In this document: one piece after another, positions 2,753-58,497 of the stretch | How the letters are laid out: every line of letters starts with the position of its first letter | Numbering within the stretch: position 1 is the first letter of the stretch | DNA from: an uncultured Desulfovibrionaceae bacterium | GTDB lineage: Bacteria > Desulfobacterota > Desulfovibrionia > Desulfovibrionales > Desulfovibrionaceae | Assembly (NCBI GenBank): GCA_964370675.1 | Contig: CAYJKC010000007.1 | Location: 959-64,958, forward strand | Direction: 5' to 3' | Length of the DNA: 64,000 nucleotides | The notes under the pieces: generated by a model | The model's input: only the letters and a program-made list of their open reading frames with translations | Database searches by the model: none | Told to the model about the DNA's origin: nothing | Translations under genes and position numbers: made by a program

Positions 2753-3616
2753 GTGGAAATTATGCCAAGAAAATCTATATTATTAGCAACTTGCTGTTTA
2801 TTCGTTTTTGCTACTGGCTGTGCCAAGCAAGAAGACTATACTACTCTACAACAACAAGTATCTACGCAAAATCAACAATTACGCCAACTTCAACCCGGCA
2901 TGGCTGATAACTGGGCTCAATTGCAAGCCATACGCCAAGATTTAAATGCCATTAAAGGTCAATTAGACGACCTTAATGCCATGGGTGGTGCAAAAAACCT
3001 TGTGGATATAGTTAATAGGCATGATGCTGCCCTTAGACAAGTAGAAAGATCTCTAGCACTTAACCTAAATCTTGATGCACCCATATCACCAACCATAATG
3101 GAAAGTGGTATGGAAGCAGGTATGGAAGGCAGCATAGGCAGTGATGGTGTTTATAGAGATGGTCCACCCCAACAACATCGTGGGACCTTAGCCCTAACTC
3201 CTGTAACCCCACAACCTCCAATGACCCAAGCGCCACAAACCGATATGGCAACAGCTCTATATAATGCTGGAGTAAGCTCTTTTAACGCAAGGCAATATGC
3301 TGAAGCTCAGCGCTCATTTAGTGATTTTACCAAAAACTACCCTAACAATCCTCAAGTGGGTAATGCCTGGTATTATGTAGGTGAATGTAATTTTCAACTA
3401 AATAAATTTAATGACGCAGCCTTAGCCTATGATAAAGTTATTAATAATTATCCCAAAAGCCCCTCAGCGCCCGGTGCATATCTAAAACAAGGTATTAGTT
3501 TTAGTAAACTTGGACAAAAAGCTGCTGCCACAGCACGTTTACAAGAGCTGATTAAAAAGTTCCCCACATCGGCTGAGGCATCAAGAGCAAAATCATTTTT
3601 ACAAACAAACCGTTAA
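2753..3616 (+). CDS. cpoB: YbgF/CpoB-like protein (coiled coil plus C-terminal TPR), with a lipobox
   Basis: Signal peptide with FATGC lipobox, Q-rich coiled coil, Pro/Met-rich linker and C-terminal TPRs (NAWYYVGECNF..., AYLKQGISFSKLGQ). No other tol-pal genes are adjacent. Confidence 0.6.
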   Translation: MEIMPRKSILLATCCLFVFATGCAKQEDYTTLQQQVSTQNQQLRQLQPGMADNWAQLQAIRQDLNAIKGQLDDLNAMGGAKNLVDIVNRHDAALRQVERSLALNLNLDAPISPTIMESGMEAGMEGSIGSDGVYRDGPPQQHRGTLALTPVTPQPPMTQAPQTDMATALYNAGVSSFNARQYAEAQRSFSDFTKNYPNNPQVGNAWYYVGECNFQLNKFNDAALAYDKVINNYPKSPSAPGAYLKQGISFSKLGQKAAATARLQELIKKFPTSAEASRAKSFLQTNR

Positions 3617-3619
3617 GAT

Positions 3620-4063
3620 ATGACAAATAGTTCTAAATTACCAGATCGCAAAGAAGTAATACTTAATTTTGCACCAGATATTTCTAACGAGCCACTAGTA
3701 TGTAGGCTTGTAAGTGACTATGGTCTTTTATTTAATATAATGAAGGCGCAAATTGGTCCACGCAAAGAAGGCAGTTTAACCCTTGAACTCATAGGCAAAA
3801 CGCCAGATATTGAGCGAGGTATTGTCTACCTTAAAAAATGTGGAGTCAAGGTGCTTGGGCTTAAACATGAAGTGCAATTTCATGAGGAGCTTTGCATGCA
3901 CTGTGGTATGTGCACTGCTGTGTGTAAACCTCAAGCTTTGTTTGTAGATACAAATACTAGGCTTACCAACTTTGATTCAAAGCTTTGTATTGCCTGTGGG
4001 TTATGCACAAAGGTATGCCCTGTAAATGCCATGCAAAGAGATGAAGAACAAAAAACGCTGTAA
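3620..4063 (+). CDS. NIL-domain protein fused to a 2x[4Fe-4S] ferredoxin domain
   Basis: N-terminal NIL-like domain (LVCRLVSDYGLLFNIMKAQI...). Two cluster motifs, CMHCGMCTAVC and CIACGLCTKVCP. Confidence 0.7.
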   Translation: MTNSSKLPDRKEVILNFAPDISNEPLVCRLVSDYGLLFNIMKAQIGPRKEGSLTLELIGKTPDIERGIVYLKKCGVKVLGLKHEVQFHEELCMHCGMCTAVCKPQALFVDTNTRLTNFDSKLCIACGLCTKVCPVNAMQRDEEQKTL

Positions 4064-4091
4064 GCATATACATTAAATATAATCTTTCACC

Positions 4092-4137
4092 AAATCCCAT
4101 TAAATTGAAATATTATTTAATGGGATTTTGTTTTTTT
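4092..4137 (+). terminator. Rho-independent terminator after the NIL-ferredoxin gene
   Basis: Perfect 14-bp stem, aaatcccattaaat (4092-4105) with atttaatgggattt (4115-4128), followed by tgttttttt. Confidence 0.75.
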
Positions 4138-4253
4138 AAAAATTTACTAAACAAAAATTTATCTATAGTATTTTAAGTTGACATCACTAGCACATTATGG
4201 CTACAGACACGGCATTGTCATTTCAATAATTTATGCAATGATGTTTGATGTTC

Positions 4254-4326
4254 GGTAAAGTTTTTTTCGCTGCTCGGCACTTTCGCGTTGCTTCACCGCC
4301 GGCTAATTGCTTAAAAAACCTTTCCC
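4254..4326 (+). repeat. Copy A of a ~70-nt conserved intergenic hairpin element (copy B at 44927-44997)
   Basis: ggtaaagttttttt...caccgccggctaattgcttaaaaaacctttccc aligns with copy B at roughly 75-80% identity by eye. Same orientation, 19-nt loop of similar sequence, arms gtttttt/aaaaaac. Confidence 0.6.
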
Positions 4327-4377
4327 AACCTCAAACAGATTTTTGCCAAAACAAGCGTGGCTAAAAAAAGTATAAAA

Positions 4378-5241
4378 TTAGAATGCCGTGTTAGATTCAG
4401 CAATATATTCCATAAAATATGCTACTATATCAAAGCTATAATTGGCATATAAAGCTCTACATCCGACCACATCTTCAACCTCATTAAAAAGCAAGTTTTC
4501 ATCTTCATCAAGGATAAAATCTATGCCTACAAAATCAAAGGATAACGTAGAGCATATTTTTTTTACCTGCTCCTTTTCACAAAAATTAAGTTCATAAGGC
4601 TCAGATTTGCCACCCATAGATATATTAGATTTAAAACTATCATCAGCAACACGTTTAACACTGGAAACTATATTATTATTTATTATATATACACGTATAT
4701 CAATACCACAATTGTTAGAAAACTCCTGTATAATAAACTCTTCGGTAGGAATTTTTGCAATCACTTCTAAAAGTTGTGTTTGGTTATGCACTTTAAATAC
4801 TTCATTGCCTCCATGCCCATTCACTGACTTTAGCACCAGAGGATAATGTAATAGCATATCATAATTAATCAAATTACTTTTATTGCACAATAAAGTATTT
4901 ATAGACTTCACACCTAGACTGTTTACAACTTGATGTGTCCTTGCTTTATTATTACAAACCTCAGTAATATTAGAACTATTAAAAACTCTAATTCCCAATG
5001 CTTCAAAATGATATGCAATACGAGCATCACGAGTTCTATTAATAACGAAGTATGTTTTTTCTAATTTTTTATGCCTATAAGTGATAGATAAGTCACCACC
5101 AAATATAAATAGCTGTAATTCATCAGCAAAAACAAGTTTGATATTAAAGCCGAAATCAATGCCAACATCTTGCAATTTTTTTGCAAACCAAGCGTTTTTA
5201 GCATAATCGCTGCGATTATATATAAGTAGAGCGTCTTTCAT
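4378..5241 (-). CDS. RimK/GshB-type ATP-grasp ligase, paralog B (second gene of the pair)
   Basis: 287 aa. Gly-rich loop KSVNGHGGNEVFKV, and C-terminal metal-site region VGIDFILDEDENLLFNEVEDV. The start overlaps the upstream paralog's stop (ATGA). Confidence 0.75.
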   Translation of the reverse strand: MKDALLIYNRSDYAKNAWFAKKLQDVGIDFGFNIKLVFADELQLFIFGGDLSITYRHKKLEKTYFVINRTRDARIAYHFEALGIRVFNSSNITEVCNNKARTHQVVNSLGVKSINTLLCNKSNLINYDMLLHYPLVLKSVNGHGGNEVFKVHNQTQLLEVIAKIPTEEFIIQEFSNNCGIDIRVYIINNNIVSSVKRVADDSFKSNISMGGKSEPYELNFCEKEQVKKICSTLSFDFVGIDFILDEDENLLFNEVEDVVGCRALYANYSFDIVAYFMEYIAESNTAF

Positions 5242-6137
5242 AATGTTTGTAAAATGTAGTCAATGACATGCTTAGCCACATTGACTGATGTGCACTCAGA
5301 AATATTTTTAATGTGTGCATTAGAATTTACTTCACACAAAATAGGCTCATCTTGCTCCCCAAATAAAATATCCACTCCTGCAAAATCCACATGTAATATC
5401 TTTGCACATCTTAGTGCCATGTCAACAAATTGCTGCGAGGGATCATATGGCTGCATAATACCACCATTGGTAACATTAGCCCTAAAATCATGTTCTGAGG
5501 TACGCAATACTGCGGCAACTACCTTTTGACCAACCACCTGCAAACGAACATCGCGCCCTTTGCTTGATGCAATAAACTCTTGATATATATGAGGCTTTAA
5601 AAGCAACTCTTTTCTTTTATTTTGTAACTCTTGCCTATTATTAATCAAATAAACCTGTGAACCAAATGAGCCATACACTTCTTTAACAATCAATGGATAT
5701 GAAAAATGGCTCTCTATATCTTTTACTACACTTAAACCTGCGTCATGGCTTTCTTCTATAAATCCAGAATAATGCAAATGAGAAATAAGCGTTTTAGGCT
5801 GTTTAATATCGTGCTTAGCTAAGATTTGCGCTGTTAAAAACTTATCATCGCAATTTTGAATAGCAGCGTGTGAATTATACAACTTGTAGCCAAGGCTTTC
5901 CAAATGATATGCTAAACGCAAATCTTTTTCTAAAAACAATATAAAATCTGGCTGTGTTATAGAAGAGTGACTTGAAATTAAATTTTTATTGTGAATTAGG
6001 CTATATATATCAGAGCTCTTAACTGGCTCTAATCTAACATTGTTCTTCTTAGCGGCTTCAATATATAAAGCATGTACTTCCAAAAATTTTTTTGATGCAA
6101 TACTGGTATTATACACTAACCACGCTTTTTTTTGCAT
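5238..6137 (-). CDS. RimK/GshB-type ATP-grasp ligase, paralog A (first gene of the pair)
   Basis: 299 aa. Loop KEVYGSFGSQVYLI, RDVRLQVVG, and the canonical AGVDILF...ILCEVNSN metal-binding motif. AGGA lies 8 nt upstream of the ATG. Confidence 0.75.
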   Translation of the reverse strand: MQKKAWLVYNTSIASKKFLEVHALYIEAAKKNNVRLEPVKSSDIYSLIHNKNLISSHSSITQPDFILFLEKDLRLAYHLESLGYKLYNSHAAIQNCDDKFLTAQILAKHDIKQPKTLISHLHYSGFIEESHDAGLSVVKDIESHFSYPLIVKEVYGSFGSQVYLINNRQELQNKRKELLLKPHIYQEFIASSKGRDVRLQVVGQKVVAAVLRTSEHDFRANVTNGGIMQPYDPSQQFVDMALRCAKILHVDFAGVDILFGEQDEPILCEVNSNAHIKNISECTSVNVAKHVIDYILQTL

Positions 6138-6209
6138 TAACTTATCCTAACAATAGAGTAATATTTTTAAGCTTCATTATAATGACAAAGAACTGAAGTT
6201 TTCAATTGA

Positions 6210-6240
6210 AGTATATTGGACAAAGCTCTATTCAAGTCAA
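6210..6240 (-). promoter_or_regulatory. Candidate sigma70-type promoter for the ATP-grasp pair
   Basis: Minus-strand TTGACT (6240-6235) followed 17-19 nt later by AATATA/TATACT (6217-6210). It lies between the ugd terminator and the ATP-grasp start. Confidence 0.3.
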
Positions 6241-6252
6241 AATAACATAATT

Positions 6253-6289
6253 ATAAAAAACCCTCATAAGGTACATATCCTTATGAGGG
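6253..6289 (-). terminator. Rho-independent terminator of ugd
   Basis: Perfect 11-bp stem, ccctcataagg (6261-6271) with ccttatgaggg (6279-6289). On the minus strand it is followed by TTTTTT (6260-6255). Confidence 0.8.
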
Positions 6290-6317
6290 TTGACTTAGTA
6301 AATTTATTAAATCTATT

Positions 6318-7646
6318 TTATTTTCTGCCCACACAAAAATATGCAAAACCTTTGTCAGCCACATGTTGCGGAGAATATAAATTACGTCCATCAAACATAA
6401 CTGGAGCAACAAGTAAGGTTTTTAATTGCTCATAGTCTGGATTTCTAAATTGATTCCATTCTGTGGCAACTAATAATGCATTGGCATTTTTACATGCTGC
6501 ATATTGATCATCTACAATTTCCACTAAGTTATTACCTTCAAGAATTTTCTTGGCATTTTCATGCGCCACAGGGTCATAGGCAAGCACACGCATACCGGCT
6601 GCAGTTAGTTCTTGAATAATGGTTAGAGAGGCAGCTTCACGCATGTCATCGGTATTGGCTTTAAATGCAAGACCCCACAAGGCAAGAGTTTTACCAGCAA
6701 CACCACCTTGAGGTGCAAAGTACTCCATAATACGCTTTGCCATGCTTTTCTTTTGACGAGCATTAACACTTTCTACAGCATTTAATAGTTCTGGATTAAC
6801 TCCTGCAGCACTAGCAGTATGAATTAAGGCTTTAACATCCTTTGGAAAGCACGACCCACCATAGCCAAGACCTGGATATATAAATTGATAGCCTATGCGT
6901 GAGTCAGAACCAATGCCCATGCGCACATCACGCACATCTGCGCCTACTCTTTCACATATAGTTGCAATTTCATTAATAAATGAGATTTTTGTGGCCAACA
7001 TGCAATTAGCTGCATACTTAGTCATTTCTGCACTACGCACACTCATAACAATTAATTTATCACGAGTGCGGGCAAAAGGAGCATATAATTCACGCATTAC
7101 ATTGGCAGCTTTTTCAGAAGCAGTACCAATTACCACACGATCAGGCTTCATAAAGTCAATTACAGCATCACCTTCTTTCAAAAATTCTGGGTTTGATACC
7201 ACTTCATAGGCAATGCTTGTTTCACGTTCCACTAATTCTTTTTCGATAAGCGAAGAAACTAGGTCAGCCGTACCTACAGGCACGGTGGATTTATCTACAA
7301 CCACAATCTCACGTTGCATGTATTTACCAATATCTCTTGCAACACTTTCTACAAAACGCAAGTCACAAGAACCGTCATCACCTGAAGGAGTGCCTACACA
7401 AATAAAGGCTACATCTGCTTTTTCAAGTCCTTCTTGTAAAGAAGTTGTAAACACTAATCGTCCATCTGCACGACTACGCTGCACAAGATCTTCAAGACCT
7501 GGCTCAAAAATATGTACAAAGCCAGCGTTTAATCTATCCACAACATTGGGATTTACATCAACACACACCACATGATTGCCCATTTCTGCAAAACAGGCTG
7601 CACTAACTAGGCCAACATAGCCAGTTCCAACAATACAAAGATTCAT
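6318..7646 (-). CDS. ugd: UDP-glucose 6-dehydrogenase
   Basis: 442 aa. N-terminal Rossmann motif VGTGYVGLV and catalytic-Cys region GYGGSCFPKD. Confidence 0.92.
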   Translation of the reverse strand: MNLCIVGTGYVGLVSAACFAEMGNHVVCVDVNPNVVDRLNAGFVHIFEPGLEDLVQRSRADGRLVFTTSLQEGLEKADVAFICVGTPSGDDGSCDLRFVESVARDIGKYMQREIVVVDKSTVPVGTADLVSSLIEKELVERETSIAYEVVSNPEFLKEGDAVIDFMKPDRVVIGTASEKAANVMRELYAPFARTRDKLIVMSVRSAEMTKYAANCMLATKISFINEIATICERVGADVRDVRMGIGSDSRIGYQFIYPGLGYGGSCFPKDVKALIHTASAAGVNPELLNAVESVNARQKKSMAKRIMEYFAPQGGVAGKTLALWGLAFKANTDDMREAASLTIIQELTAAGMRVLAYDPVAHENAKKILEGNNLVEIVDDQYAACKNANALLVATEWNQFRNPDYEQLKTLLVAPVMFDGRNLYSPQHVADKGFAYFCVGRK

Positions 7647-44926: not shown

Positions 44927-44997
44927 GGTAAAGTTTTTTAAGCGTTGCAGCACCTACGCTTCGCTCCACCGCAGCAAATTGCTTAAAAAACCTTCCC
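44927..44997 (+). repeat. Copy B of the conserved intergenic hairpin element (copy A at 4254-4326)
   Basis: ggtaaagttttttaagcgttgcagc - 19-nt loop - gcagcaaattgcttaaaaaaccttccc. The arms pair over gttttttaagc/gcttaaaaaac plus an inner GC stem. Confidence 0.6.
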
Positions 44998-45085
44998 TAT
45001 TGCTTTGCATACGCATAAGGAACAAAATTTTTGGGGTTAGAGTTGTAAATCGGAATCACGTGTTCAATAGGAACGGAGAAAAAAC

Positions 45086-52831: not shown

Positions 52832-54277
52832 ATGGTTTTTAGTTCTCTACCATTTCTACTCCTATTTTTACCCATAAGTATTCTTGGTTACTACCTGTTA
52901 TTAAGGCATAACTATGCTAAGTACGCCATACCATTTTTACTTTTGGCATCTTTATTCTTTTATGCTTATTGGAAGCCAGTATATTTATTAATTATTTTAT
53001 TTTCTATCCTTGCTAATTTCTTCTTGGGTCAAGCTATAAATAAAGCCACTAAACATAGAAAATTAATTTTTATTATAGGTATATCAATCAATTTACTATT
53101 GCTAGGATATTATAAGTATTCAGATTTTTTACTTGATACTATCAATCAAATTTTTGCAAGCCAATTTCCCATAGCAAATATTGTCCTGCCCATTGGTATA
53201 AGCTTTTATACATTTCAGCAAATTGCATATCTTTCAGATATATACACAAAAAAGCATATTAACCACTCAGGTGGATTTTTTGAGTATGCAGCCTTTGTAT
53301 GCTTTTTCCCTCAACTTATTGCCGGACCAATTGTTCATCATGCTGAAATGATGCCACAATTTACCAATAAACAAAACCAAGTCTTACAGTGGGATAACAT
53401 GTATAAAGGCTTATGCTTTTTAAGCATGGGTCTTGCCAAAAAAGTCTTGGTGGCAGATCACATTTCTCCACTAGCAAACTATGCCTTTGACGAAAGTACT
53501 TCTTTAAGCTTTTTAGAGGCCATTTTTGGAAGTATCGCTTATACCTTGCAATTATATTTTGATTTTTCAGGCTATGCAGACATGGCTATAGGTTGCGCAT
53601 TGTTTTTTAACATTACGCTACCTTTTAATTTTAACTCTCCATATAAAGCACTAAGCATTCAAGATTTTTGGAGAAGGTGGCACATGACTCTTTCGCGTTG
53701 GTTACGCGATTATCTATACATACCCCTTGGTGGCAATAAAGGTAGTGATGCGCGCACCATGGTCAATTTATTTTTAACCTTTCTGCTTGGTGGCATTTGG
53801 CATGGAGCCGGATGGACCTTTGTTCTTTGGGGCACATTGCATGGCATTGCTCTAGTTATACATAGGTTATGGTCAAAGATTTTAAATTGTAATATGCCAA
53901 AATTTTTGGCTTGGAGCTTAACATTTTCATTTGTTGTGCTTGCTTGGATTCCCTTTAGAGCTATAAACTTTGAGCGAACTACACTTTTCATAGATGGTCT
54001 GCTCTTGCAAAATGGTTTTTTTGTCAGGCATGAATTTTCCAAAATGTGTTACGATACATGGAGAAATACCTTTGCTATTAAAGGTGGTATTGGAGAATAT
54101 AGCTTAATTTTCTTTGGCTTATTAATAGCTTGTGTAAGCTTAAAAAACTCTCAAGAGTTGATAGAATTTATCACACGTAAAACCTATAGCATTTACATAG
54201 TGCTTCTTTTAACTCTTTGCCTTACTGTGCTTGTTTTACCAGGATATGTGCCTGAATTTATATATTTTCAATTTTAA
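52832..54277 (+). CDS. MBOAT-family membrane O-acyltransferase (AlgI/DltB/PatA-like), copy 1, with a C-terminal FIYFQF motif
   Basis: 481 aa, polytopic. FYTFQQIAYL, FFPQLIAGPIVHH and DFWRRWHMTLSRWLRDYLYIPLGGNKGS (invariant MBOAT His). Ends ...LPGYVPEFIYFQF*. Confidence 0.9.
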   Translation: MVFSSLPFLLLFLPISILGYYLLLRHNYAKYAIPFLLLASLFFYAYWKPVYLLIILFSILANFFLGQAINKATKHRKLIFIIGISINLLLLGYYKYSDFLLDTINQIFASQFPIANIVLPIGISFYTFQQIAYLSDIYTKKHINHSGGFFEYAAFVCFFPQLIAGPIVHHAEMMPQFTNKQNQVLQWDNMYKGLCFLSMGLAKKVLVADHISPLANYAFDESTSLSFLEAIFGSIAYTLQLYFDFSGYADMAIGCALFFNITLPFNFNSPYKALSIQDFWRRWHMTLSRWLRDYLYIPLGGNKGSDARTMVNLFLTFLLGGIWHGAGWTFVLWGTLHGIALVIHRLWSKILNCNMPKFLAWSLTFSFVVLAWIPFRAINFERTTLFIDGLLLQNGFFVRHEFSKMCYDTWRNTFAIKGGIGEYSLIFFGLLIACVSLKNSQELIEFITRKTYSIYIVLLLTLCLTVLVLPGYVPEFIYFQF

Positions 54278-54288
54278 GAGCTTTTTAT

Positions 54289-55554
54289 ATGAACTATAAA
54301 AATAAATTTATTACCGCCATAAGCATACCAATTATTTTTAATGTGGTTTTATTTTCTATTATTTTTGCTCTTCTAATCAATTATGATCACTTACAATTAA
54401 AAGAATATGATTATTATGATGCCAATAAATTTATTGCTCTGCCTAATATGCGCTTACAAGCCAAGGGTATTATAAACAATGTTGATTTTAATAGCATTAT
54501 ATTAGGTTCTTCTATGCTAGCTAATACTTCAGCCTTAGAGGCATCGCAGCTTTTTGGGGGCACATTTGTAAACCTTTCCATTTTAGGCGCAAGAACATAT
54601 GAAAGAGCTTTTATTTTTGAAGATACTTTTAGGCATAAAAAAATAAAAAATGTTATATATTCCTTAGATGTATACCATAGACCCAAGGAAGAAAGTTCGC
54701 AACTTGATAATTGGCAATTATTATATGACCAAAGCAAACTGAATGACTTAGTTGTATTACTACAACCTAAATATATAGTTGGTGCCATGAAAAAAGTTTT
54801 AACACCATATACTGCTTATGATTTTAACATAATAGATCATATAAAAATTAGCAAAAAACCCTTAATTGCCCACATAGATTTTTTTAATAGCCCTATTGAA
54901 TGGATGAGTAAACCAGATCATGTTGTGCACTTTGGTGGTCTTGCCAATTGGGTCGAAAATATAGGTGCTTTAAATACTGGAAAATTTTTACTTCAAACCC
55001 TACCTGCAACACTACAAAGTCTTACAACATATCCCAAAGTTAACTATGAAAGTGTTAACGTTGAGGAAGAAAAACAATATATTGAAAAGTATTTTCTACG
55101 CTTTGTAAAAGAACACCCTGAAACAAAGTTTTATGTTGTTTTTCCACCCTACTACAGATTTTACTATGCCCGTGACCTAGTTAAAGACGGTAAGTATTTT
55201 ATGCATCAGAAAATCACGAGGTTTATGGTAGATGCGGCTAAAAAATATGATAATTTATACATTTATGGTTTTGAAGACTTAGCTTTTTTAGATGATATTA
55301 GCAATTATATGGATATAACCCATTATCATAGTCGCTTTAATCAGTTTATGCTTGAAGCCATGAGCAAAAATGAACATCGCTTAACTGAGCAAAATGTAAA
55401 TGCATATATTGCTAAATGCGAACAATTGACCAGAAACTTTGATATTCAAAAACTATACGACGAGTCACAACAGCTTTTGCGTGAATACAAGCTGCCCACC
55501 ACTTGGGAAGACTTTTTATACCTACGCAAAAAATATGATGAAAATTCATTATAA
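54289..55554 (+). CDS. Membrane-anchored partner of MBOAT-1. Putative SGNH/DltD-like acyl transferase.
   Basis: 421 aa. One N-terminal TM helix, conserved ILGSSM serine motif and C-terminal DITHYH (Asp-x-x-His). 11 nt after the MBOAT-1 stop. The fold assignment is motif-based inference. Confidence 0.5.
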   Translation: MNYKNKFITAISIPIIFNVVLFSIIFALLINYDHLQLKEYDYYDANKFIALPNMRLQAKGIINNVDFNSIILGSSMLANTSALEASQLFGGTFVNLSILGARTYERAFIFEDTFRHKKIKNVIYSLDVYHRPKEESSQLDNWQLLYDQSKLNDLVVLLQPKYIVGAMKKVLTPYTAYDFNIIDHIKISKKPLIAHIDFFNSPIEWMSKPDHVVHFGGLANWVENIGALNTGKFLLQTLPATLQSLTTYPKVNYESVNVEEEKQYIEKYFLRFVKEHPETKFYVVFPPYYRFYYARDLVKDGKYFMHQKITRFMVDAAKKYDNLYIYGFEDLAFLDDISNYMDITHYHSRFNQFMLEAMSKNEHRLTEQNVNAYIAKCEQLTRNFDIQKLYDESQQLLREYKLPTTWEDFLYLRKKYDENSL

Positions 55555-55649
55555 ATACTAAATTGTAATTTAATACTTCTTAAAGATAAAACTCACATCA
55601 CTTATTATGTGTTTTATTAGCCAAATTTGTTTACATATGATGCAAAGAG

Positions 55650-56882
55650 TTATTCAGGCAAAGCAGTATGATTATTTTGGCGTAATAGCTTTTGTGATTC
55701 ATCATAAATTTTTTGTAAGTCATAATCTTTAGCAAGCTTATAAAATTTTGCAAGATAGGCATCAACATTTTGCAAGTTAATTTTGTGCTTACCTTCTGCT
55801 ATAGACTGAAGTATATAACTATTATAGCTATTTTTATAGTGACGCACATCTCTAAAGTTTTTAATATCACCCGCAATGTTTTGGTCACCAAAGGCATAAA
55901 TGGATAAATTATCGTACTTTTCTGCTTGTTCTACCAAGTATTTAAAAGCTTTTTCAAAACTATAAAAATCCTTCCCACCATCAATGTTTAAAGCAATAGC
56001 ATAATATGCACGGTAATATGGGGGCTGTATTATATCAAATTTAGTTTCTGGATGTTCTTTAACAAAGCTTAAAATATATTTATCAATATAGTCTTTATAT
56101 TTATCAATATTTATATCTTTGGGGTCCATAGTTGGTATTTTGTGCATATCTTCAATAGACTTTGGCAACATATCTACCAAAAAGGTTTTAATCTCTGGAA
56201 TTTCTAAACGTTTTGCCCAAAATTCTAAACCGCCAAAAAGCGAATCTCTTTCACCATCAACAACCCAATCTGCAATGGGGGTATCAAAAAATTCTATGTC
56301 TGCAGGTGTAGGCTTGGTGCTAACTTTATAATGCTTTTTTTCTATTAAATTAGAAAGTTCATCAGAAGGAAGAATAAACTTAAATGCTCCTGTCACATAA
56401 TTTGCGTCAAACAATACGAATAGATCATTAAAAATATTTTTGTCATATAATAATTCCCAATACTTGGGCTTATCAAGTTCTAAGGTTGGCTCAAAATCAA
56501 ATTCAAAAGAATATATGACATTTTTTACATTTTTTTCACGAAATAAAGCTTTAAGCACTATATATCTTTCATAAAAAGTGGAAGCTCTAATGGAAAGATT
56601 AACAAATTTTCCACCAAATAATTTTGATGCTTCGCTAGCTTTAGCAGTTTCAATTAATGATGTGCCAAGTATTACACTATTAAAATCAACATTATTTATA
56701 ATGCCCATGGCTTGTATGCGCATAGCTGGAGAAGCCGAAAATTTATTACCATCATAAAAATCGTGTTTGCGCAATTGAAGGTGGTCATAATTAATAAGCA
56801 AGGCTAAAACAGCCAAAAAAAATATGGCACAAATAATTAGCGGAACTACTATAATTTTTATGGCACTATTTTTATGGTTCAT
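55650..56882 (-). CDS. Membrane-anchored partner of MBOAT-2 (paralog of 54289-55554)
   Basis: 410 aa. Shares LLINYDHLQL, GIINNVDFNS, ILGTSL, LFGG.FVNLSI, FVKEHPETKF, DVRHYK and KIYDESQKLL blocks with copy 1. Confidence 0.5.
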   Translation of the reverse strand: MNHKNSAIKIIVVPLIICAIFFLAVLALLINYDHLQLRKHDFYDGNKFSASPAMRIQAMGIINNVDFNSVILGTSLIETAKASEASKLFGGKFVNLSIRASTFYERYIVLKALFREKNVKNVIYSFEFDFEPTLELDKPKYWELLYDKNIFNDLFVLFDANYVTGAFKFILPSDELSNLIEKKHYKVSTKPTPADIEFFDTPIADWVVDGERDSLFGGLEFWAKRLEIPEIKTFLVDMLPKSIEDMHKIPTMDPKDINIDKYKDYIDKYILSFVKEHPETKFDIIQPPYYRAYYAIALNIDGGKDFYSFEKAFKYLVEQAEKYDNLSIYAFGDQNIAGDIKNFRDVRHYKNSYNSYILQSIAEGKHKINLQNVDAYLAKFYKLAKDYDLQKIYDESQKLLRQNNHTALPE

Positions 56883-56891
56883 AATTATCTC

Positions 56892-58337
56892 TTAAAACTG
56901 AAAATATATAAATTCAGGACTATAACCTGGTAAGACAAGGTAAATTAACGAAAGGGTTAAGAGAGCAATAATATAAAGCATAAATGATTTTTTGCCTATG
57001 TATTGCATAAGCTCTTGAGTATTTTTTTGGCTTATGCATAGTATGGTAAGTGCTATTAAAAGCACAGTATATTCAATTACACCACCACCAATACCAAATG
57101 AGTTTCGCCAAGTATTATAACACATTTTTGCAAACTCTTCTCTAATCCCAAAGCCATTCAAACCTGTAAGACCATCAATAAACAACTTAGCACGCTCAAA
57201 ATTAATGGTTCTAAGCAAAATACCCGATAAACCTACAAAAATGAATGTAATTACCCAAGCGCATATCTTAGGCATTTTAAGCCCATAAATTTGCGACCAA
57301 GCTCTGTTAATGACCAAAGCAATGCCGTGCAATGCACCCCAAAGCACATAGTTCCAGCCAGCACCATGCCATATGCCCCCAAGTAAAAATGGCACAAAGA
57401 TATTGCGCATGGTTTGCCAAGAGCTACCCTTATTACCACCCAAGGGGAAGTAAAGATAATCGCGTAGCCAGCGTGAGAGGGTCATATGCCACCTTCTCCA
57501 AAAGTCTTGAATACTTAATGCCTTAAATGGCGAATTGAAGTTTAGAGGTAGTTGAATATTGAAAAAAAGTGCACAGCCTATGGCCATATCGGCATAGCCT
57601 GAAAAGTCAAAATAAATTTGCATTAGATATGCAAGCCCACCAAACAGTGATTCTAAAAAGCTTAGTGAGTGGGCTTGATCAAAACTATAACCCACCAAGG
57701 GAGATAAGTTATCTGCAATTAAAACTTTTTTGGCAAGGCCAATACTTAAAAAACAAAGACCTGTATGAATGTTTTCCCAGCGTACAACTTGATTTTGTTT
57801 ATCTGCAAATTGAGGCATCATTTCAGCATGATGTACAATGGGACCAGCTATTAATTGTGGGAAAAAACACACAAAGGTAGCATATTCAACAAATCCGCCG
57901 GCATGATCAATATGCTTTTTAGTAAAAATATCTGTAAGATATGCAATTTGTTGGAAAGTATAGAAGCTAATGCCTATGGGCAAAATTATATGTGTTAAGG
58001 GGATTTGAGTGCTAAATGCTTCATTTAAATTGGTAATAAAAAAGTCAGTGTATTTGAAATAAGCCAAAAGCATTAAGTTCATGCTCACGCCAAGAATAAA
58101 TATTTGTTTGCGGCGTGGCTCATAATTATTCATGGACTGACCTAGACCATAGTTAGCTCCAATGGAAAATATAATCAGTAATAAATATACAGGGTTCCAA
58201 TAAGCATAAAAGAACAATGACGCCACTAACAAAAATGGAATAACGAGTTTACCATAATTATAGCGTAATAAAAGATAGTAAATGACTATGGTAATAGGTA
58301 AAAATAAAAGGAGAAAAGGTAATGAGCTAAAAACCAT
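56892..58337 (-). CDS. MBOAT-family membrane O-acyltransferase, copy 2, with a C-terminal FIYFQF motif
   Basis: Collinear with copy 1 and has the same catalytic blocks. Ends ...LPGYSPEFIYFQF*. Start taken at MVFSSLPFLLLFLP (58337), matching copy 1. Confidence 0.9.
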   Translation of the reverse strand: MVFSSLPFLLLFLPITIVIYYLLLRYNYGKLVIPFLLVASLFFYAYWNPVYLLLIIFSIGANYGLGQSMNNYEPRRKQIFILGVSMNLMLLAYFKYTDFFITNLNEAFSTQIPLTHIILPIGISFYTFQQIAYLTDIFTKKHIDHAGGFVEYATFVCFFPQLIAGPIVHHAEMMPQFADKQNQVVRWENIHTGLCFLSIGLAKKVLIADNLSPLVGYSFDQAHSLSFLESLFGGLAYLMQIYFDFSGYADMAIGCALFFNIQLPLNFNSPFKALSIQDFWRRWHMTLSRWLRDYLYFPLGGNKGSSWQTMRNIFVPFLLGGIWHGAGWNYVLWGALHGIALVINRAWSQIYGLKMPKICAWVITFIFVGLSGILLRTINFERAKLFIDGLTGLNGFGIREEFAKMCYNTWRNSFGIGGGVIEYTVLLIALTILCISQKNTQELMQYIGKKSFMLYIIALLTLSLIYLVLPGYSPEFIYFQF

Positions 58338-58497
58338 AGAAAAAAAACCTATACACAAAAATTAAGTTTGCTTCATGAAAAATATGAGAAATGTTCAACA
58401 GCGTAGGCGTCTAACATTTTTATGGTGCAAAGTAAACCAATGAAAATGGTACGTGATTGTGATTTGGCTACTTTTGCCTATGATGTGATGAAAATGA

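What the first reader, a model, noticed from the sequence alone, without database searches (positions are those of the whole stretch)
4378..6137. Orphan, translationally coupled pair of RimK-type ATP-grasp ligases on an A+T-rich islet next to ugd
Seen in sequence. Two paralogous ~290-aa ATP-grasp genes overlap by ATGA (5238-5241). They have their own promoter-like TTGACT-N17/19-TATACT (6240-6210) downstream of the ugd terminator (6253-6289). At their 3' side lie a conserved hairpin repeat (4254-4326) and the strong terminator of the convergent gene. A spot count of a 60-nt line gives ~30% G+C. No rpsF, no F420 or methanopterin genes, no Mur ligase and no peptide-precursor ORF is nearby. Established knowledge. 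RimK-family enzymes activate a carboxylate as an acyl phosphate and ligate an amine, as in poly-Glu tails on S6, CofF/MptN and NAAG-type dipeptides. Two-ligase sets act sequentially in microviridin/graspetide maturation. An ATP-grasp domain in Campylobacter jejuni capsule synthesis amidates glucuronate. Inference. This may be a two-step amino-acid ligation onto an unknown carboxylate. The neighbouring UDP-glucose 6-dehydrogenase makes glucuronate amidation one testable idea, but the intervening terminator argues against a shared transcript.
Basis: partly seen in the sequence, partly recalled or inferred. Interest (0 to 1): 0.65.

Follow-up and report, generated by a model that had tools for sequence, protein, structure and literature searches.

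The report
Borrowed pair of RimK-type ligases
Two adjacent genes for ATP-dependent amino-acid ligases of unknown substrate are a conserved gene pair acquired from Gram-positive bacteria; in those bacteria the pair repeatedly sits among folate genes, so it may modify the glutamate tail of folate rather than the sugar acid made by the neighbouring gene.

Summary
Two intact, ATGA-coupled minus-strand genes (A 5238-6137, B 4378-5241) encode distinct RimK-fold ATP-grasp ligases (24% identical). They lie in a 31.7% G+C stretch of a 38.8% window and are bounded by the ugd terminator.

The pair is "orphan" only locally. A followed by B is a conserved module in several hundred Bacillota species. The window's copy and three Desulfovibrionaceae-type copies form one clade nested inside Bacillota, which indicates old horizontal transfer.

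No homologous locus carries ugd, so the glucuronate-amidation idea has no comparative support. Neither protein reaches the curated cutoff of RimK/S6, LysX, MptN, CofF, GshB or the graspetide maturases. No rpsF, carrier or precursor gene accompanies the pair.

In Bacillota the pair is the core of a larger module. Its other parts are an FGase-type amidohydrolase, a membrane protein and sometimes a second FolC paralog. The module recurs beside folC, thyA-folA, purU and fhs.

My best inference, about 45% likely, is sequential addition of amino acids (probably L-glutamate) to the folate glutamate tail, analogous to CofF and MptN. A is the primary enzyme, since B has been lost repeatedly. No published description was found.

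The parts
5238..6137 (-). Gene A: upstream RimK-family ATP-grasp ligase, 299 aa; core enzyme of the module
   Evidence: ORF. PF08443 4.5e-42. TIGR00768 rimK_fam 199 bits, above the cutoff of 143. AF2 pLDDT 90.7. Best fold match is RimK 5zct, TM 0.81. Invariant K152, D196/R198, R212, DFRAN 217-221, D256 and E269/N271 across 31 homologs. A is retained alone in lineages that lost B.
4378..5241 (-). Gene B: downstream RimK-family ATP-grasp ligase, 287 aa; accessory second ligase
   Evidence: ORF. PF08443 2.3e-25. TIGR00768 133 bits, below the cutoff of 143. AF2 pLDDT 91.6. Fold matches are RimK and ArgX, TM about 0.8. Invariant K138, D181/R183, R197, N206, D241 and E254 across 34 homologs. The usual third metal-ligand Asn is an invariant Glu (E256, motif NE[VI]EDV).
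5238..5241 (-). ATGA stop/start overlap; translational coupling of A and B
   Evidence: The + strand reads tcat at 5238-5241. No Shine-Dalgarno-like run lies upstream of the start of B. Overlapping or abutting A-B junctions recur in homologous loci.
6138..6258 (-). 5' leader and promoter region of the pair, with AGGA ribosome-binding site (6148-6145) and two promoter-like sites
   Evidence: TTGAAA-N18-TATAAT at 6205-6176, 11 of 12 matches. TTGACT-N19-TATACT at 6240-6210, read. The count of such sites is not above chance in this A+T-rich DNA. No Rfam element.
6259..6291 (-). Intrinsic terminator of ugd; upstream boundary of the pair's transcription unit
   Evidence: 13-bp stem with 6 G-C pairs, followed by TTTTATAATT.
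4245..4335 (-). Imperfect long hairpin 3' of B; one of two copies of a repeated intergenic element. It is probably not specific to the pair.
   Evidence: RNAfold gives -34.6 kcal/mol for 4240-4340 on the minus strand. The second copy lies at 44927-44998 and shares the termini. The consensus fold has 2 compensatory pairs, from only two sequences.
4092..4140 (+). Hairpin plus T-run ending the convergent NIL-ferredoxin gene; downstream boundary of the islet
   Evidence: AAATCCCATTAAAT...ATTTAATGGGATTT followed by TGTTTTTTT. The hairpin appears in the RNAfold output.

Best explanation
What is shown:
- 5238-6137 (A) and 4378-5241 (B) are an intact, translationally coupled two-gene operon.
- They encode two different RimK-fold ATP-grasp carboxylate-amine ligases.
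- They are orthologs of an A-then-B pair conserved in several hundred Bacillota species.
- The window's host has the Tol-Pal protein CpoB, so it is a diderm. Its lineage holds the pair through an old horizontal transfer from Clostridia-like donors.

What is inferred:
- Chemistry. Each enzyme phosphorylates a terminal carboxylate with ATP. It then joins the alpha-amino group of an amino acid to it. Every characterised RimK-subfamily member uses an acidic amino acid, so L-glutamate is the most likely one.
- Order. A does the primary step, because A persists alone in lineages that lost B. B adds or extends a second residue.
- Acceptor. The acceptor that best fits the comparative evidence is the glutamate tail of folate, that is pteroyl(poly)glutamate. 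The pair would cap or extend the chain made by FolC, as CofF does for F420 and MptN does for tetrahydromethanopterin.
- Accessory parts. In the fuller Bacillota versions, an FGase-type amidohydrolase (X) would trim the tail. A second FolC paralog and a membrane-anchored CDC48_N-like protein (Y) would also take part. The window has only the minimal A-B core.
- The adjacency to ugd is incidental.
For: Family and fold. Catalytic residues conserved.

Conserved pair. There are more than 2300 A-like and more than 1000 B-like proteins, found on shared contigs. In the 80 best species loci, B lies downstream of A in about 60.

Transfer. All named homologs are Bacillota except one Desulfovibrionaceae MAG. 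The host encodes CpoB, TIGR02795 at 105 bits against a cutoff of 90. In the NJ tree the window and three Desulfovibrionaceae-type sequences form one clade. That clade is nested in Bacillota, next to the Caldicellulosiruptor and thyA-folA modules. G+C is low.

A is primary. In 11-13 of the 80 loci, A has no B within 10 kb, while sister taxa keep both.

Folate link, by arrangement:
- Caldicellulosiruptor: valS-folC-X-A-B-Y with overlapping stops and starts.
- Metagenome contig: thyA-X-A-B-Y-folA.
- Paenibacillus: purU-X-A-B-Y.
- About 16 Bacillaceae: the pair sits exactly between valS and folC.
- Bacillus, Sutcliffiella and metagenome contig L137: A-B is followed at -3 to +1 nt (a longer ORF overlap in L137) by a second FolC paralog. 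The Bacillus and Sutcliffiella paralogs score 261 and 244 bits on TIGR01499, above the cutoff of 163.
- Pseudoneobacillus and Clostridium: Y-X-A-B beside valS-folC.
- Lachnospiraceae: ftsK-A-B-(HAD)-fhs. fhs overlaps the end of B in L060.

In total, 38 of about 86 loci have one of these five folate genes within 4 genes, and none has one farther out within the 10-kb flanks.

X is an FGase-family member: PF05013 at 34.7 bits against a cutoff of 28.9, and several X-family proteins carry precomputed PF05013 hits.

Precedents. CofF and MptN are named alpha-L-glutamate ligases of cofactor tails. MyfA and MyfB act in sequence (PMC8141765).
Against: There is no biochemical evidence at all.

The folate association rests on about 4-5 independent arrangements among about 21-24 context classes. 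My rough binomial estimate is p of about 1e-2 to 2e-4. The valS-folC adjacency could be inherited synteny.

Most context classes show no folate gene. This includes all four Desulfovibrionaceae-type loci and the window itself. Many X-A-B-Y modules in metagenomes also lack one within 9 kb.

No THF or other riboswitch precedes A in the 8 loci tested.

Some neighbours point elsewhere:
- an S66 LD-carboxypeptidase after B in 2 loci;
- a dlt operon inserted between A and B in 1 locus;
- a methyltransferase coupled to B in 2 Desulfovibrionaceae-type loci;
- RNase H-A fusions;
- X standing alone next to ddl and a Mur ligase in Saccharibacteria.

The nucleophile, assumed to be Glu, is inferred from family precedent only. 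The motifs after the metal ligands (CEVNSNAH in A, NEVEDV in B) differ from those of RimK.
Confidence: 0.45

Rival explanations
1. Free peptide synthesis. A and B act as L-amino-acid ligases that build a soluble di- or tripeptide or a short poly-alpha-glutamate or aspartate from free amino acids. The product could be a compatible solute, a thiol-type peptide analogous to the two-step glutathione route, or a storage peptide. X would serve as the matching hydrolase.
For: E. coli RimK and MyfB make poly-alpha-glutamate from glutamate alone in vitro (PMC8141765 text; title of PDB entry 5zct). The module is self-contained and moves between contexts, as expected if the substrates are ubiquitous amino acids. 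B has weak glutathione-synthase similarity: PF02955 at 9e-13 and NF003573 at 58 bits. Many hosts are halophilic or alkaliphilic Bacillaceae.
Against: It does not explain the recurrent folC, FolC2, thyA-folA, purU and fhs neighbours. The GshB score is far below the cutoff of 272, and GshB is not among the top 50 fold matches. No exporter or regulator is conserved with the pair.
Confidence: 0.2
2. Protein C-terminal glutamylation. The pair modifies a protein as RimK does with ribosomal protein S6, or loads a LysW-type carrier as LysX and ArgX do. A would initiate and B would extend the tail.
For: The closest solved structures are RimK, including the RimK-RpsF complex 5zk6, and ArgX/LysX bound to LysW, at TM about 0.8. 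The Pseudomonas RimABK system pairs a ligase with a trimming protease (PMC11957791 abstract), which resembles A/B plus X. Some A proteins are fused to an RNase H-like domain, which could hint at a nucleic-acid or ribosome setting.
Against: NF007764 (RimK) scores are 94 and 60 against a cutoff of 331. TIGR02144 (LysX) scores are 138 and 89 against a cutoff of 276. No rpsF lies in the window or in 92 loci. No conserved small ORF or carrier gene lies next to the pair. No lysine or arginine biosynthesis genes are nearby. The C-termini of Y are basic, not acidic.
Confidence: 0.15
3. Cell-envelope modification. This includes the first reader's idea that the ligases amidate glucuronate made by the neighbouring Ugd, and the alternative that they modify a peptidoglycan or teichoic-acid precursor.
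For: ugd is the next gene in the window. A has a weak match to PF14397, the sugar-transfer-associated ATP-grasp family, at 7.7e-12. Sporadic envelope neighbours occur elsewhere: an S66 LD-carboxypeptidase, a dlt operon inserted between A and B, LytR-CpsA-Psr genes, and X next to ddl and a Mur ligase in Saccharibacteria.
Against: A terminator separates ugd from the pair. No Ugd homolog occurs in any of about 180 related loci. The window's closest relatives hold the pair in other contexts. No glycosyltransferase or capsule genes flank the pair in the window. Envelope genes make up a large share of any genome, so sporadic adjacency is expected.
Confidence: 0.07
4. The pair is a decaying or functionless remnant of a transferred module. 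X, Y and FolC2 have been lost and the pair has no current role in this genome.
For: Only the two-gene core is present. There are no remnants of X, Y, FolC2 or the methyltransferase. G+C is low.
Against: Both ORFs are full length with all catalytic residues. The pair is intact in at least four genomes of the clade at 55-65% identity, which implies long purifying selection. The two-gene form is also the commonest form in Bacillota.
Confidence: 0.03

Closest known systems
CofF (gamma-F420-2:alpha-L-glutamate ligase) and MptN (tetrahydromethanopterin:alpha-L-glutamate ligase), archaeal RimK-family cofactor-tail ligases
   Same: Same RimK subfamily and size (about 290 aa). The chemistry adds an alpha-linked Glu to the terminal carboxylate of a cofactor side chain. 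They act after a separate gamma-glutamyl ligase, as A and B would act after FolC. These are the best functional analogy for the folate-linked contexts.
   Different: Scores are far below the equivalog cutoffs: MptN 117 and 87 against 350, CofF 94 and 41 against 300. The hosts are bacteria, and no F420 or methanopterin gene lies in the window or next to the pair in the loci examined. Here two different ligases are paired, sometimes with a hydrolase, a membrane protein and a FolC paralog. The acceptor is unproven.
RimK (ribosomal protein S6 : L-glutamate ligase; poly-alpha-glutamate synthetase) and the RimABK system
   Same: Closest solved structures: TM 0.8 and 22-26% identity. Same catalytic motifs. 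In Pseudomonas the ligase works with a trimming hydrolase.
   Different: NF007764 scores are 94 and 60 against a cutoff of 331. No rpsF, rimA or rimB accompanies the pair. The trimming partner here is an FGase-type amidohydrolase, not a retropepsin. B carries Glu in place of the third metal-ligand Asn.
LysX / ArgX (LysW-dependent amino-group carrier ligases)
   Same: Second-best sequence and structure matches. In Sulfolobus two paralogous ligases coexist.
   Different: TIGR02144 scores are 138 and 89 against a cutoff of 276. No LysW-like small ORF and no lysine or arginine biosynthesis genes lie next to the pair.
MyfA / MyfB of methylofuran biosynthesis
   Same: Two ATP-grasp glutamate ligases that act one after the other on a one-carbon cofactor's glutamate chain (PMC8141765). 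This is a precedent for an initiator plus an extender.
   Different: The cofactor and host group differ (methylotrophs). MyfA is MfnD-like, not RimK-like. I made no direct sequence comparison here.
FolC (dihydrofolate synthase / folylpolyglutamate synthase)
   Same: It is the known enzyme that builds the folate glutamate tail. It is the most frequent neighbour of the pair, and a FolC paralog is part of the extended module.
   Different: FolC has the Mur-ligase fold and makes gamma linkages. A and B have the ATP-grasp fold, whose characterised RimK-type members make alpha linkages.

Membership tests
ATP-grasp superfamily, RimK family (PF08443 / TIGR00768) | Significant match to the family models over the full ATP-grasp domain | tested here: met
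   PF08443: A 144 bits and B 90 bits against a cutoff of 21. TIGR00768: A 199 bits, above the cutoff of 143.4; B 133 bits, just below it.
ATP-grasp superfamily, RimK family (PF08443 / TIGR00768) | Three-domain RimK/LysX fold | tested here: met
   The AF2 models have pLDDT 90.7 and 91.6. The top Foldseek hits are RimK, ArgX and LysX with TM 0.77-0.83.
ATP-grasp superfamily, RimK family (PF08443 / TIGR00768) | Catalytic set: ATP-binding Lys plus Gly-rich loop, Arg/Asn of the (D)F(R/K)xN motif, and Asp/Glu/Asn metal ligands | tested here: met
   A has K152, GSFGSQ, R219/N221, D256, E269 and N271, all invariant. B has K138, GHGG, K204/N206, D241 and E254, but an invariant Glu (E256) where Asn is usual.
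RimK proper (S6:Glu ligase) | Equivalog-level similarity (NF007764, cutoff 331) | tested here: not met
   A 93.7 bits, B 59.8 bits.
RimK proper (S6:Glu ligase) | Genomic link to rpsF or the rimA/rimB partners | tested here: not met
   No S6 homolog lies in the window or in 92 loci (the query was recalled from memory). No conserved protease or phosphodiesterase neighbour was found.
LysX/ArgX amino-group carrier ligases | Equivalog score (TIGR02144, cutoff 275.6), an adjacent LysW-type carrier and lysine/arginine pathway genes | tested here: not met
   A 137.7 bits, B 88.7 bits. No conserved small ORF was found and no pathway genes.
MptN / CofF cofactor alpha-glutamate ligases | Equivalog scores (NF040720 cutoff 350; TIGR04443 cutoff 300) | tested here: not met
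   MptN: 116.7 and 86.9 bits. CofF: 94 and 41.4 bits. The analogy is functional, not membership.
Glutathione synthase GshB | Equivalog score (NF003573 cutoff 272; TIGR01380 cutoff 299) | tested here: not met
   A 38 bits, B 58 bits. GshB is not among the top 50 fold matches.
Graspetide / microviridin ATP-grasp maturases | Similarity to the MvdC/MvdD or SAV_5884 models, and an adjacent precursor peptide gene | tested here: not met
   Scores are 22-27 bits against cutoffs of 350-475. TM to MdnB, MdnC and PsnB is 0.65-0.73, against 0.8 to RimK. No conserved small ORF was found.
Campylobacter capsule glucuronamide-forming ATP-grasp (Cj1438-like) | Sequence similarity to that domain | not tested
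Campylobacter capsule glucuronamide-forming ATP-grasp (Cj1438-like) | Conserved association with ugd or capsule glycosyltransferase genes | tested here: not met
   Ugd is absent from all of about 180 related loci. A terminator lies between ugd and the pair.
Conserved Bacillota A-B ligase module (uncharacterised; defined here) | An A-type gene immediately followed by a co-oriented B-type gene. Each protein is closer to its own type than to the other. | tested here: met
   The window's A and B score 45-65% and 37-57% identity to their respective families, against 24% to each other. The A-then-B order holds in about 60 of 80 species loci. The window's A is nested in the family tree.
Conserved Bacillota A-B ligase module (uncharacterised; defined here) | Extended components (FGase-type X, CDC48_N-like Y, FolC paralog) or an adjacent folate gene | tested here: not met
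   tblastn finds none of these in the 64-kb window (E > 0.4). The window has the minimal two-gene form.
Anti-phage defence systems (PADLOC) | Match to any defence-system model | tested here: not met
   No family matched at E <= 0.01 for either protein.

The most novel reading that the evidence does not exclude
The A-B pair, with the FGase-type hydrolase, the membrane protein and the FolC paralog in fuller versions, is a previously unrecognised bacterial system. It would remodel the glutamate tail of folates by adding alpha-linked glutamates, or other residues, after FolC's gamma-linked ones. This would be the bacterial counterpart of CofF and MptN. From memory, and not checked here, alpha-carboxyl-linked folylpolyglutamates and a distinct synthesising activity were reported in E. 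coli in 1986 (Ferone et al., J Biol Chem), and I know of no gene assigned to that activity. A RimK-family folate ligase would give this orphan activity its first genetic candidate. It would also show that the system can be transferred between phyla as a two-gene cassette.
Probability: 0.3. Interest if true: 0.8.

Novelty: new variant of a known kind. Interest (0 to 1): 0.55.

Why it matters
If the folate link is real, a widespread pair of enzymes alters the polyglutamate tail of a central one-carbon cofactor. At least about 600 species representatives carry it, mostly Clostridia and Bacilli, and many of them are gut and rumen taxa. The tail controls cellular retention of folates and their affinity for enzymes. 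Alpha-linked or otherwise capped tails would resist gamma-glutamyl hydrolases. That would affect folate exchange in microbial communities, folate measurements and antifolate action.

The finding would also supply candidate genes for an enzyme activity that, to my knowledge, has had none. It would extend the CofF/MptN principle from archaeal cofactors to folate.

If the link is not real, the result still stands as a large, conserved, uncharacterised two-ligase family. It has a clear case of cross-phylum transfer and a defined set of partners to test.

Tried and rejected
- Link to ugd and glucuronate amidation. Rejected: there is no Ugd in any related locus and a terminator lies between the genes.
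- Defence system. No PADLOC match.
- Graspetide or RiPP. No precursor ORF and weak model and fold similarity.
- S6 modification. No rpsF association.
- LysW route. No carrier gene or pathway genes.
- Riboswitch or T-box leader that could reveal the ligand. Nothing in the window at 3500-6800 except a sub-threshold trpB-motif hit that coincides with the ugd terminator. Nothing lies upstream of A in 8 diverse loci.
- Remnants of X, Y, FolC2, the methyltransferase or folate genes in the window. None found.
- Sequence search of X and Y against PDB chains. Nothing usable.
- Pfam on the Caldicellulosiruptor X. No hit. Family membership in FGase only emerged from other members.
- Sporulation link, suggested by spoIIIE, spoIIA and spoVID neighbours. 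Set aside, because Caldicellulosiruptor (non-sporulating to my knowledge) and the Desulfovibrionaceae-type hosts keep the pair.
- Literature. Six full-text searches found no paper on a folate-linked RimK pair. The library holds only open-licence papers.
- Host taxonomy. It could not be verified directly.
Full report
**Observation**

The window holds two minus-strand ORFs. A is 5238-6137 (299 aa) and B is 4378-5241 (287 aa). On the minus strand the stop of A and the start of B overlap as ATGA.

Both proteins match the RimK ATP-grasp domain: PF08443 at 4.5e-42 for A and 2.3e-25 for B. They are 24% identical to each other, E = 5e-28, so they are old paralogs and not a recent duplication.

Upstream, the convergently named but co-oriented ugd (6318-7646) ends in a clean intrinsic terminator at 6291-6259. 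An AGGA sits 7 nt before the start of A. Two promoter-like sites are present (6205-6176 and 6240-6210). Such matches are no more frequent here than in shuffled sequence.

Downstream lies a long imperfect hairpin (4245-4335), followed by the hairpin and T-run of the convergent NIL-ferredoxin gene. The hairpin element has a second copy at 44927-44998. It is therefore a dispersed intergenic repeat and not part of the ligase unit.

The stretch 4064-6317 has 31.7% G+C against 38.8% for the window, which places it in the lowest 3% of equal-sized windows. Third-position G+C of A and B is close to that of the host.

**What the proteins are**

A exceeds the NCBIfam RimK-subfamily cutoff (199 bits against 143). 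B falls just short (133 bits). Neither comes near any equivalog cutoff:

| Model | A (bits) | B (bits) | Cutoff |
|---|---|---|---|
| LysX | 138 | 89 | 276 |
| MptN | 117 | 87 | 350 |
| CofF | 94 | 41 | 300 |
| RimK/S6 | 94 | 60 | 331 |
| GshB | 38 | 58 | 272 |
| Graspetide maturases | 27 or less | not matched | 350-475 |

The AlphaFold models are confident, with pLDDT 90.7 and 91.6. Their best PDB matches are RimK and then ArgX/LysX, at TM about 0.8. Graspetide ligases, D-Ala-D-Ala ligases and synapsins follow at 0.65-0.73.

All catalytic positions are conserved in alignments of 31 A-type and 34 B-type sequences. B-type proteins invariantly carry Glu where ATP-grasp enzymes usually have the third metal-ligand Asn (NE[VI]EDV). 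Both are thus most likely active ligases of the RimK/LysX clade but belong to no characterised family.

**The pair is a conserved module**

Homolog searches found more than 2300 A-like and more than 1000 B-like proteins, often on the same contigs. The 80 best are all Bacillota, apart from one uncultured Desulfovibrionaceae MAG at 65% identity. The Bacillota include Peribacillus, Virgibacillus, Amphibacillus, Anaerocolumna, Herbinix, Cellulosilyticum, Eubacterium and Epulonipiscium.

In about 60 of these 80 loci, a B-type gene lies directly downstream of the A-type gene on the same strand, often overlapping it. No third gene is universally conserved.

In 11-13 loci, A has no B within 10 kb, while sister taxa with the same flanks keep both. 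Examples are Amphibacillus, Aquibacillus, Epulonipiscium, and L011 and L028 against L021, L026 and L031. B is therefore dispensable and A is the core enzyme.

**Horizontal transfer**

The window's host encodes the Tol-Pal protein CpoB, TIGR02795 at 105 bits against a cutoff of 90. It is therefore a diderm.

The closest homologs (55-65% identity) come from three MAGs. One is labelled Desulfovibrionaceae. In these MAGs the pair lies in other contexts:
- histidine kinase | A-B-methyltransferase | radical-SAM/SPASM, in two of them;
- sigma-54 activator and TPR protein | A-B | histidine kinase, in the third.

A neighbour-joining tree, without bootstrap, places the window and these three as one clade. 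That clade is nested within Bacillota sequences. It sits beside Caldifermentibacillus, Cellulosilyticum, Caldicellulosiruptor, Clostridium thermarum and the thyA-folA metagenome module.

Together with the ameliorated GC3, this points to one old acquisition. Retention under selection and local rearrangement followed.

**ugd is incidental**

No Ugd homolog occurs in any of about 180 related loci. Nothing else flanking the pair in the window recurs elsewhere either.

**The folate association**

Looking beyond the closest 80 loci revealed fuller versions of the module. They contain up to three further parts:
- X, a 210-265-aa protein of the N-formylglutamate amidohydrolase family. PF05013 scores 34.7 bits against a cutoff of 28.9 in the Pseudoneobacillus member, and several X-family proteins carry precomputed PF05013 hits. 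H89, D158/H160 and E232 are invariant.
- Y, a 430-620-aa protein with CDC48_N-like barrel repeats and a C-terminal membrane anchor.
- In some cases a second FolC paralog. Two of these were scored on TIGR01499, at 261 and 244 bits against a cutoff of 163.

The arrangements seen are:
- Caldicellulosiruptor: valS-folC-X-A-B-Y with overlapping junctions.
- A metagenomic contig: thyA-X-A-B-Y-folA.
- Paenibacillus thermotolerans: purU-X-A-B-Y.
- Bacillus sp.: folC | Y-X-A-B-FolC2 | valS.
- Pseudoneobacillus: valS, folC | Y-X-A-B.
- Clostridium sp.: Y-X-A-B-valS-folC.
- Sutcliffiella and metagenome contig L137: (X-)A-B-FolC2.
- About 16 Bacillaceae: A-B exactly between valS and folC, in either orientation.
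- About 20 Lachnospiraceae-type loci: ftsK-A-B-(HAD)-fhs. fhs overlaps the end of B in L060.

In all, 38 of about 86 loci carry folC, fhs, thyA, folA or purU within four genes of the pair. None carries one farther out in the 10-kb flanks.

Counted as independent arrangements, this is about 4-5 of 21-24 context classes. I estimate roughly p = 1e-2 to 2e-4, depending on how many folate genes are counted. The estimate is crude and does not correct for phylogeny.

The window's A falls in the same subclade as the Caldicellulosiruptor and thyA-folA modules. The inference is therefore transferable to it in principle.

**Mechanism proposed**

By family precedent, each enzyme forms an acyl phosphate on a terminal carboxylate and joins an amino acid to it. 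Characterised RimK-subfamily members all use an acidic amino acid. RimK, MptN and CofF use L-Glu. LysX and ArgX use alpha-aminoadipate or Glu. This is established knowledge, and the model names appear.

The best-supported acceptor is the glutamate tail of folate. FolC, and FolC2 where present, builds gamma-linked residues. A and then B add further residues, probably alpha-linked. X trims them. MyfA and MyfB of methylofuran show that two ATP-grasp ligases can act in series on a one-carbon cofactor tail (PMC8141765).

The family, fold, operon structure, conservation, transfer and genomic associations are shown. The substrate, the linkage and the order of action are inferred.

**Evidence against, and rivals**

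Most context classes lack folate genes. These include the window, all Desulfovibrionaceae-type loci and many metagenomic X-A-B-Y modules. No riboswitch precedes A in eight loci.

Scattered neighbours point elsewhere:
- an S66 LD-carboxypeptidase;
- a dlt operon inserted between A and B;
- a methyltransferase coupled to B;
- RNase H-A fusions;
- X standing alone beside ddl in Saccharibacteria.

The rivals are these:
- Free peptide or poly-alpha-glutamate synthesis (0.20).
- Protein C-terminal glutamylation (0.15). It is weakened by the absence of rpsF and of any carrier ORF.
- Envelope modification, including glucuronate amidation (0.07).
- A functionless remnant (0.03).

**Comparison with known systems and novelty**

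The pair works like CofF/MptN or RimK but is a member of none of them (see the membership rows). Six full-text searches found no description of a RimK-type pair linked to folate genes. The library is limited to open-licence papers.

I rate it a new variant of a known kind. The fold and chemistry are known. The two-ligase module, with its own optional partners and a likely new acceptor, is conserved and uncharacterised.

**Caveats**
- Gene calls in the loci came from a simple ORF heuristic.
- The tree is NJ without support values.
- Context classes are not fully independent.
- The host taxonomy is inferred only from the nearest homologs.
- The E. coli alpha-linked folate precedent is from memory.

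Noticed in passing
window 4254-4326 and 44927-44998: Two copies of an intergenic hairpin element about 70 nt long. The termini are identical (GGTAAAGTTTTTT ... TTGCTTAAAAAACCTT) and the centre is variable G+C-rich. One copy lies 3' of gene B. The other lies between divergent genes. The consensus fold keeps the stem, with 2 compensatory pairs, but rests on only two sequences. It is probably a REP/MITE-like repeat of this genome.
   Followed up: partly
window 52832-58358: A second A+T-rich islet (30-35% G+C). It holds two MBOAT (DltB/AlgI-type) acyltransferase genes on opposite strands. Each is paired with a 410-421-aa protein that has no Pfam match. These two partner proteins are 45% identical paralogs. 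The islet looks like a duplicated two-gene O-acylation cassette.
   Followed up: partly
window 4378-5241 (protein B, residue E256) and all 34 B-type homologs: B-type ligases invariantly have Glu (NE[VI]EDV) where ATP-grasp enzymes normally have the Asn metal ligand (ExN). The other catalytic residues are kept. The functional consequence is unknown.
   Followed up: partly
L010 9122-10894; L015 9185-10879; protein P0112: In some Clostridia the A-type ligase is fused to an N-terminal domain of about 270 aa. P0112, the only one with a domain annotation, carries an RNase H match (PF00075). For L010 and L015 the RNase H-like assignment is my reading of the sequence. The folate hypothesis does not explain this fusion.
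   Followed up: no
L064 10873-15252; L032 10888-13448; L067 10876-12448: In three Bacillota genomes, foreign genes are inserted between A and B. They appear to be a dltABCD operon, a BlaI/BlaR-LytR unit and a membrane transporter; these identities are read from the sequences and were not scanned. The pair therefore tolerates physical separation.
   Followed up: no
L001 8779-9483; L097 3048-3785: In two Desulfovibrionaceae-type relatives, a class-I SAM methyltransferase follows B. In L097 it overlaps the end of B. Next to it lies a divergent radical-SAM/SPASM gene and a TraB/GumN gene. The window has no remnant of these.
   Followed up: partly
L098/L099 7001-7678 (Candidatus Saccharibacteria): An X-type (FGase-family) amidohydrolase occurs alone, without A or B. 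It lies near ddl and a Mur-ligase gene. The X family may therefore have a broader peptide-amidase role.
   Followed up: no
window 6250-6349 (-): A sub-threshold Rfam hit to the trpB ncRNA motif (32 bits against a gathering score of 59, E = 0.07). It coincides with the ugd terminator hairpin and is probably a chance match to the stem-loop.
   Followed up: no
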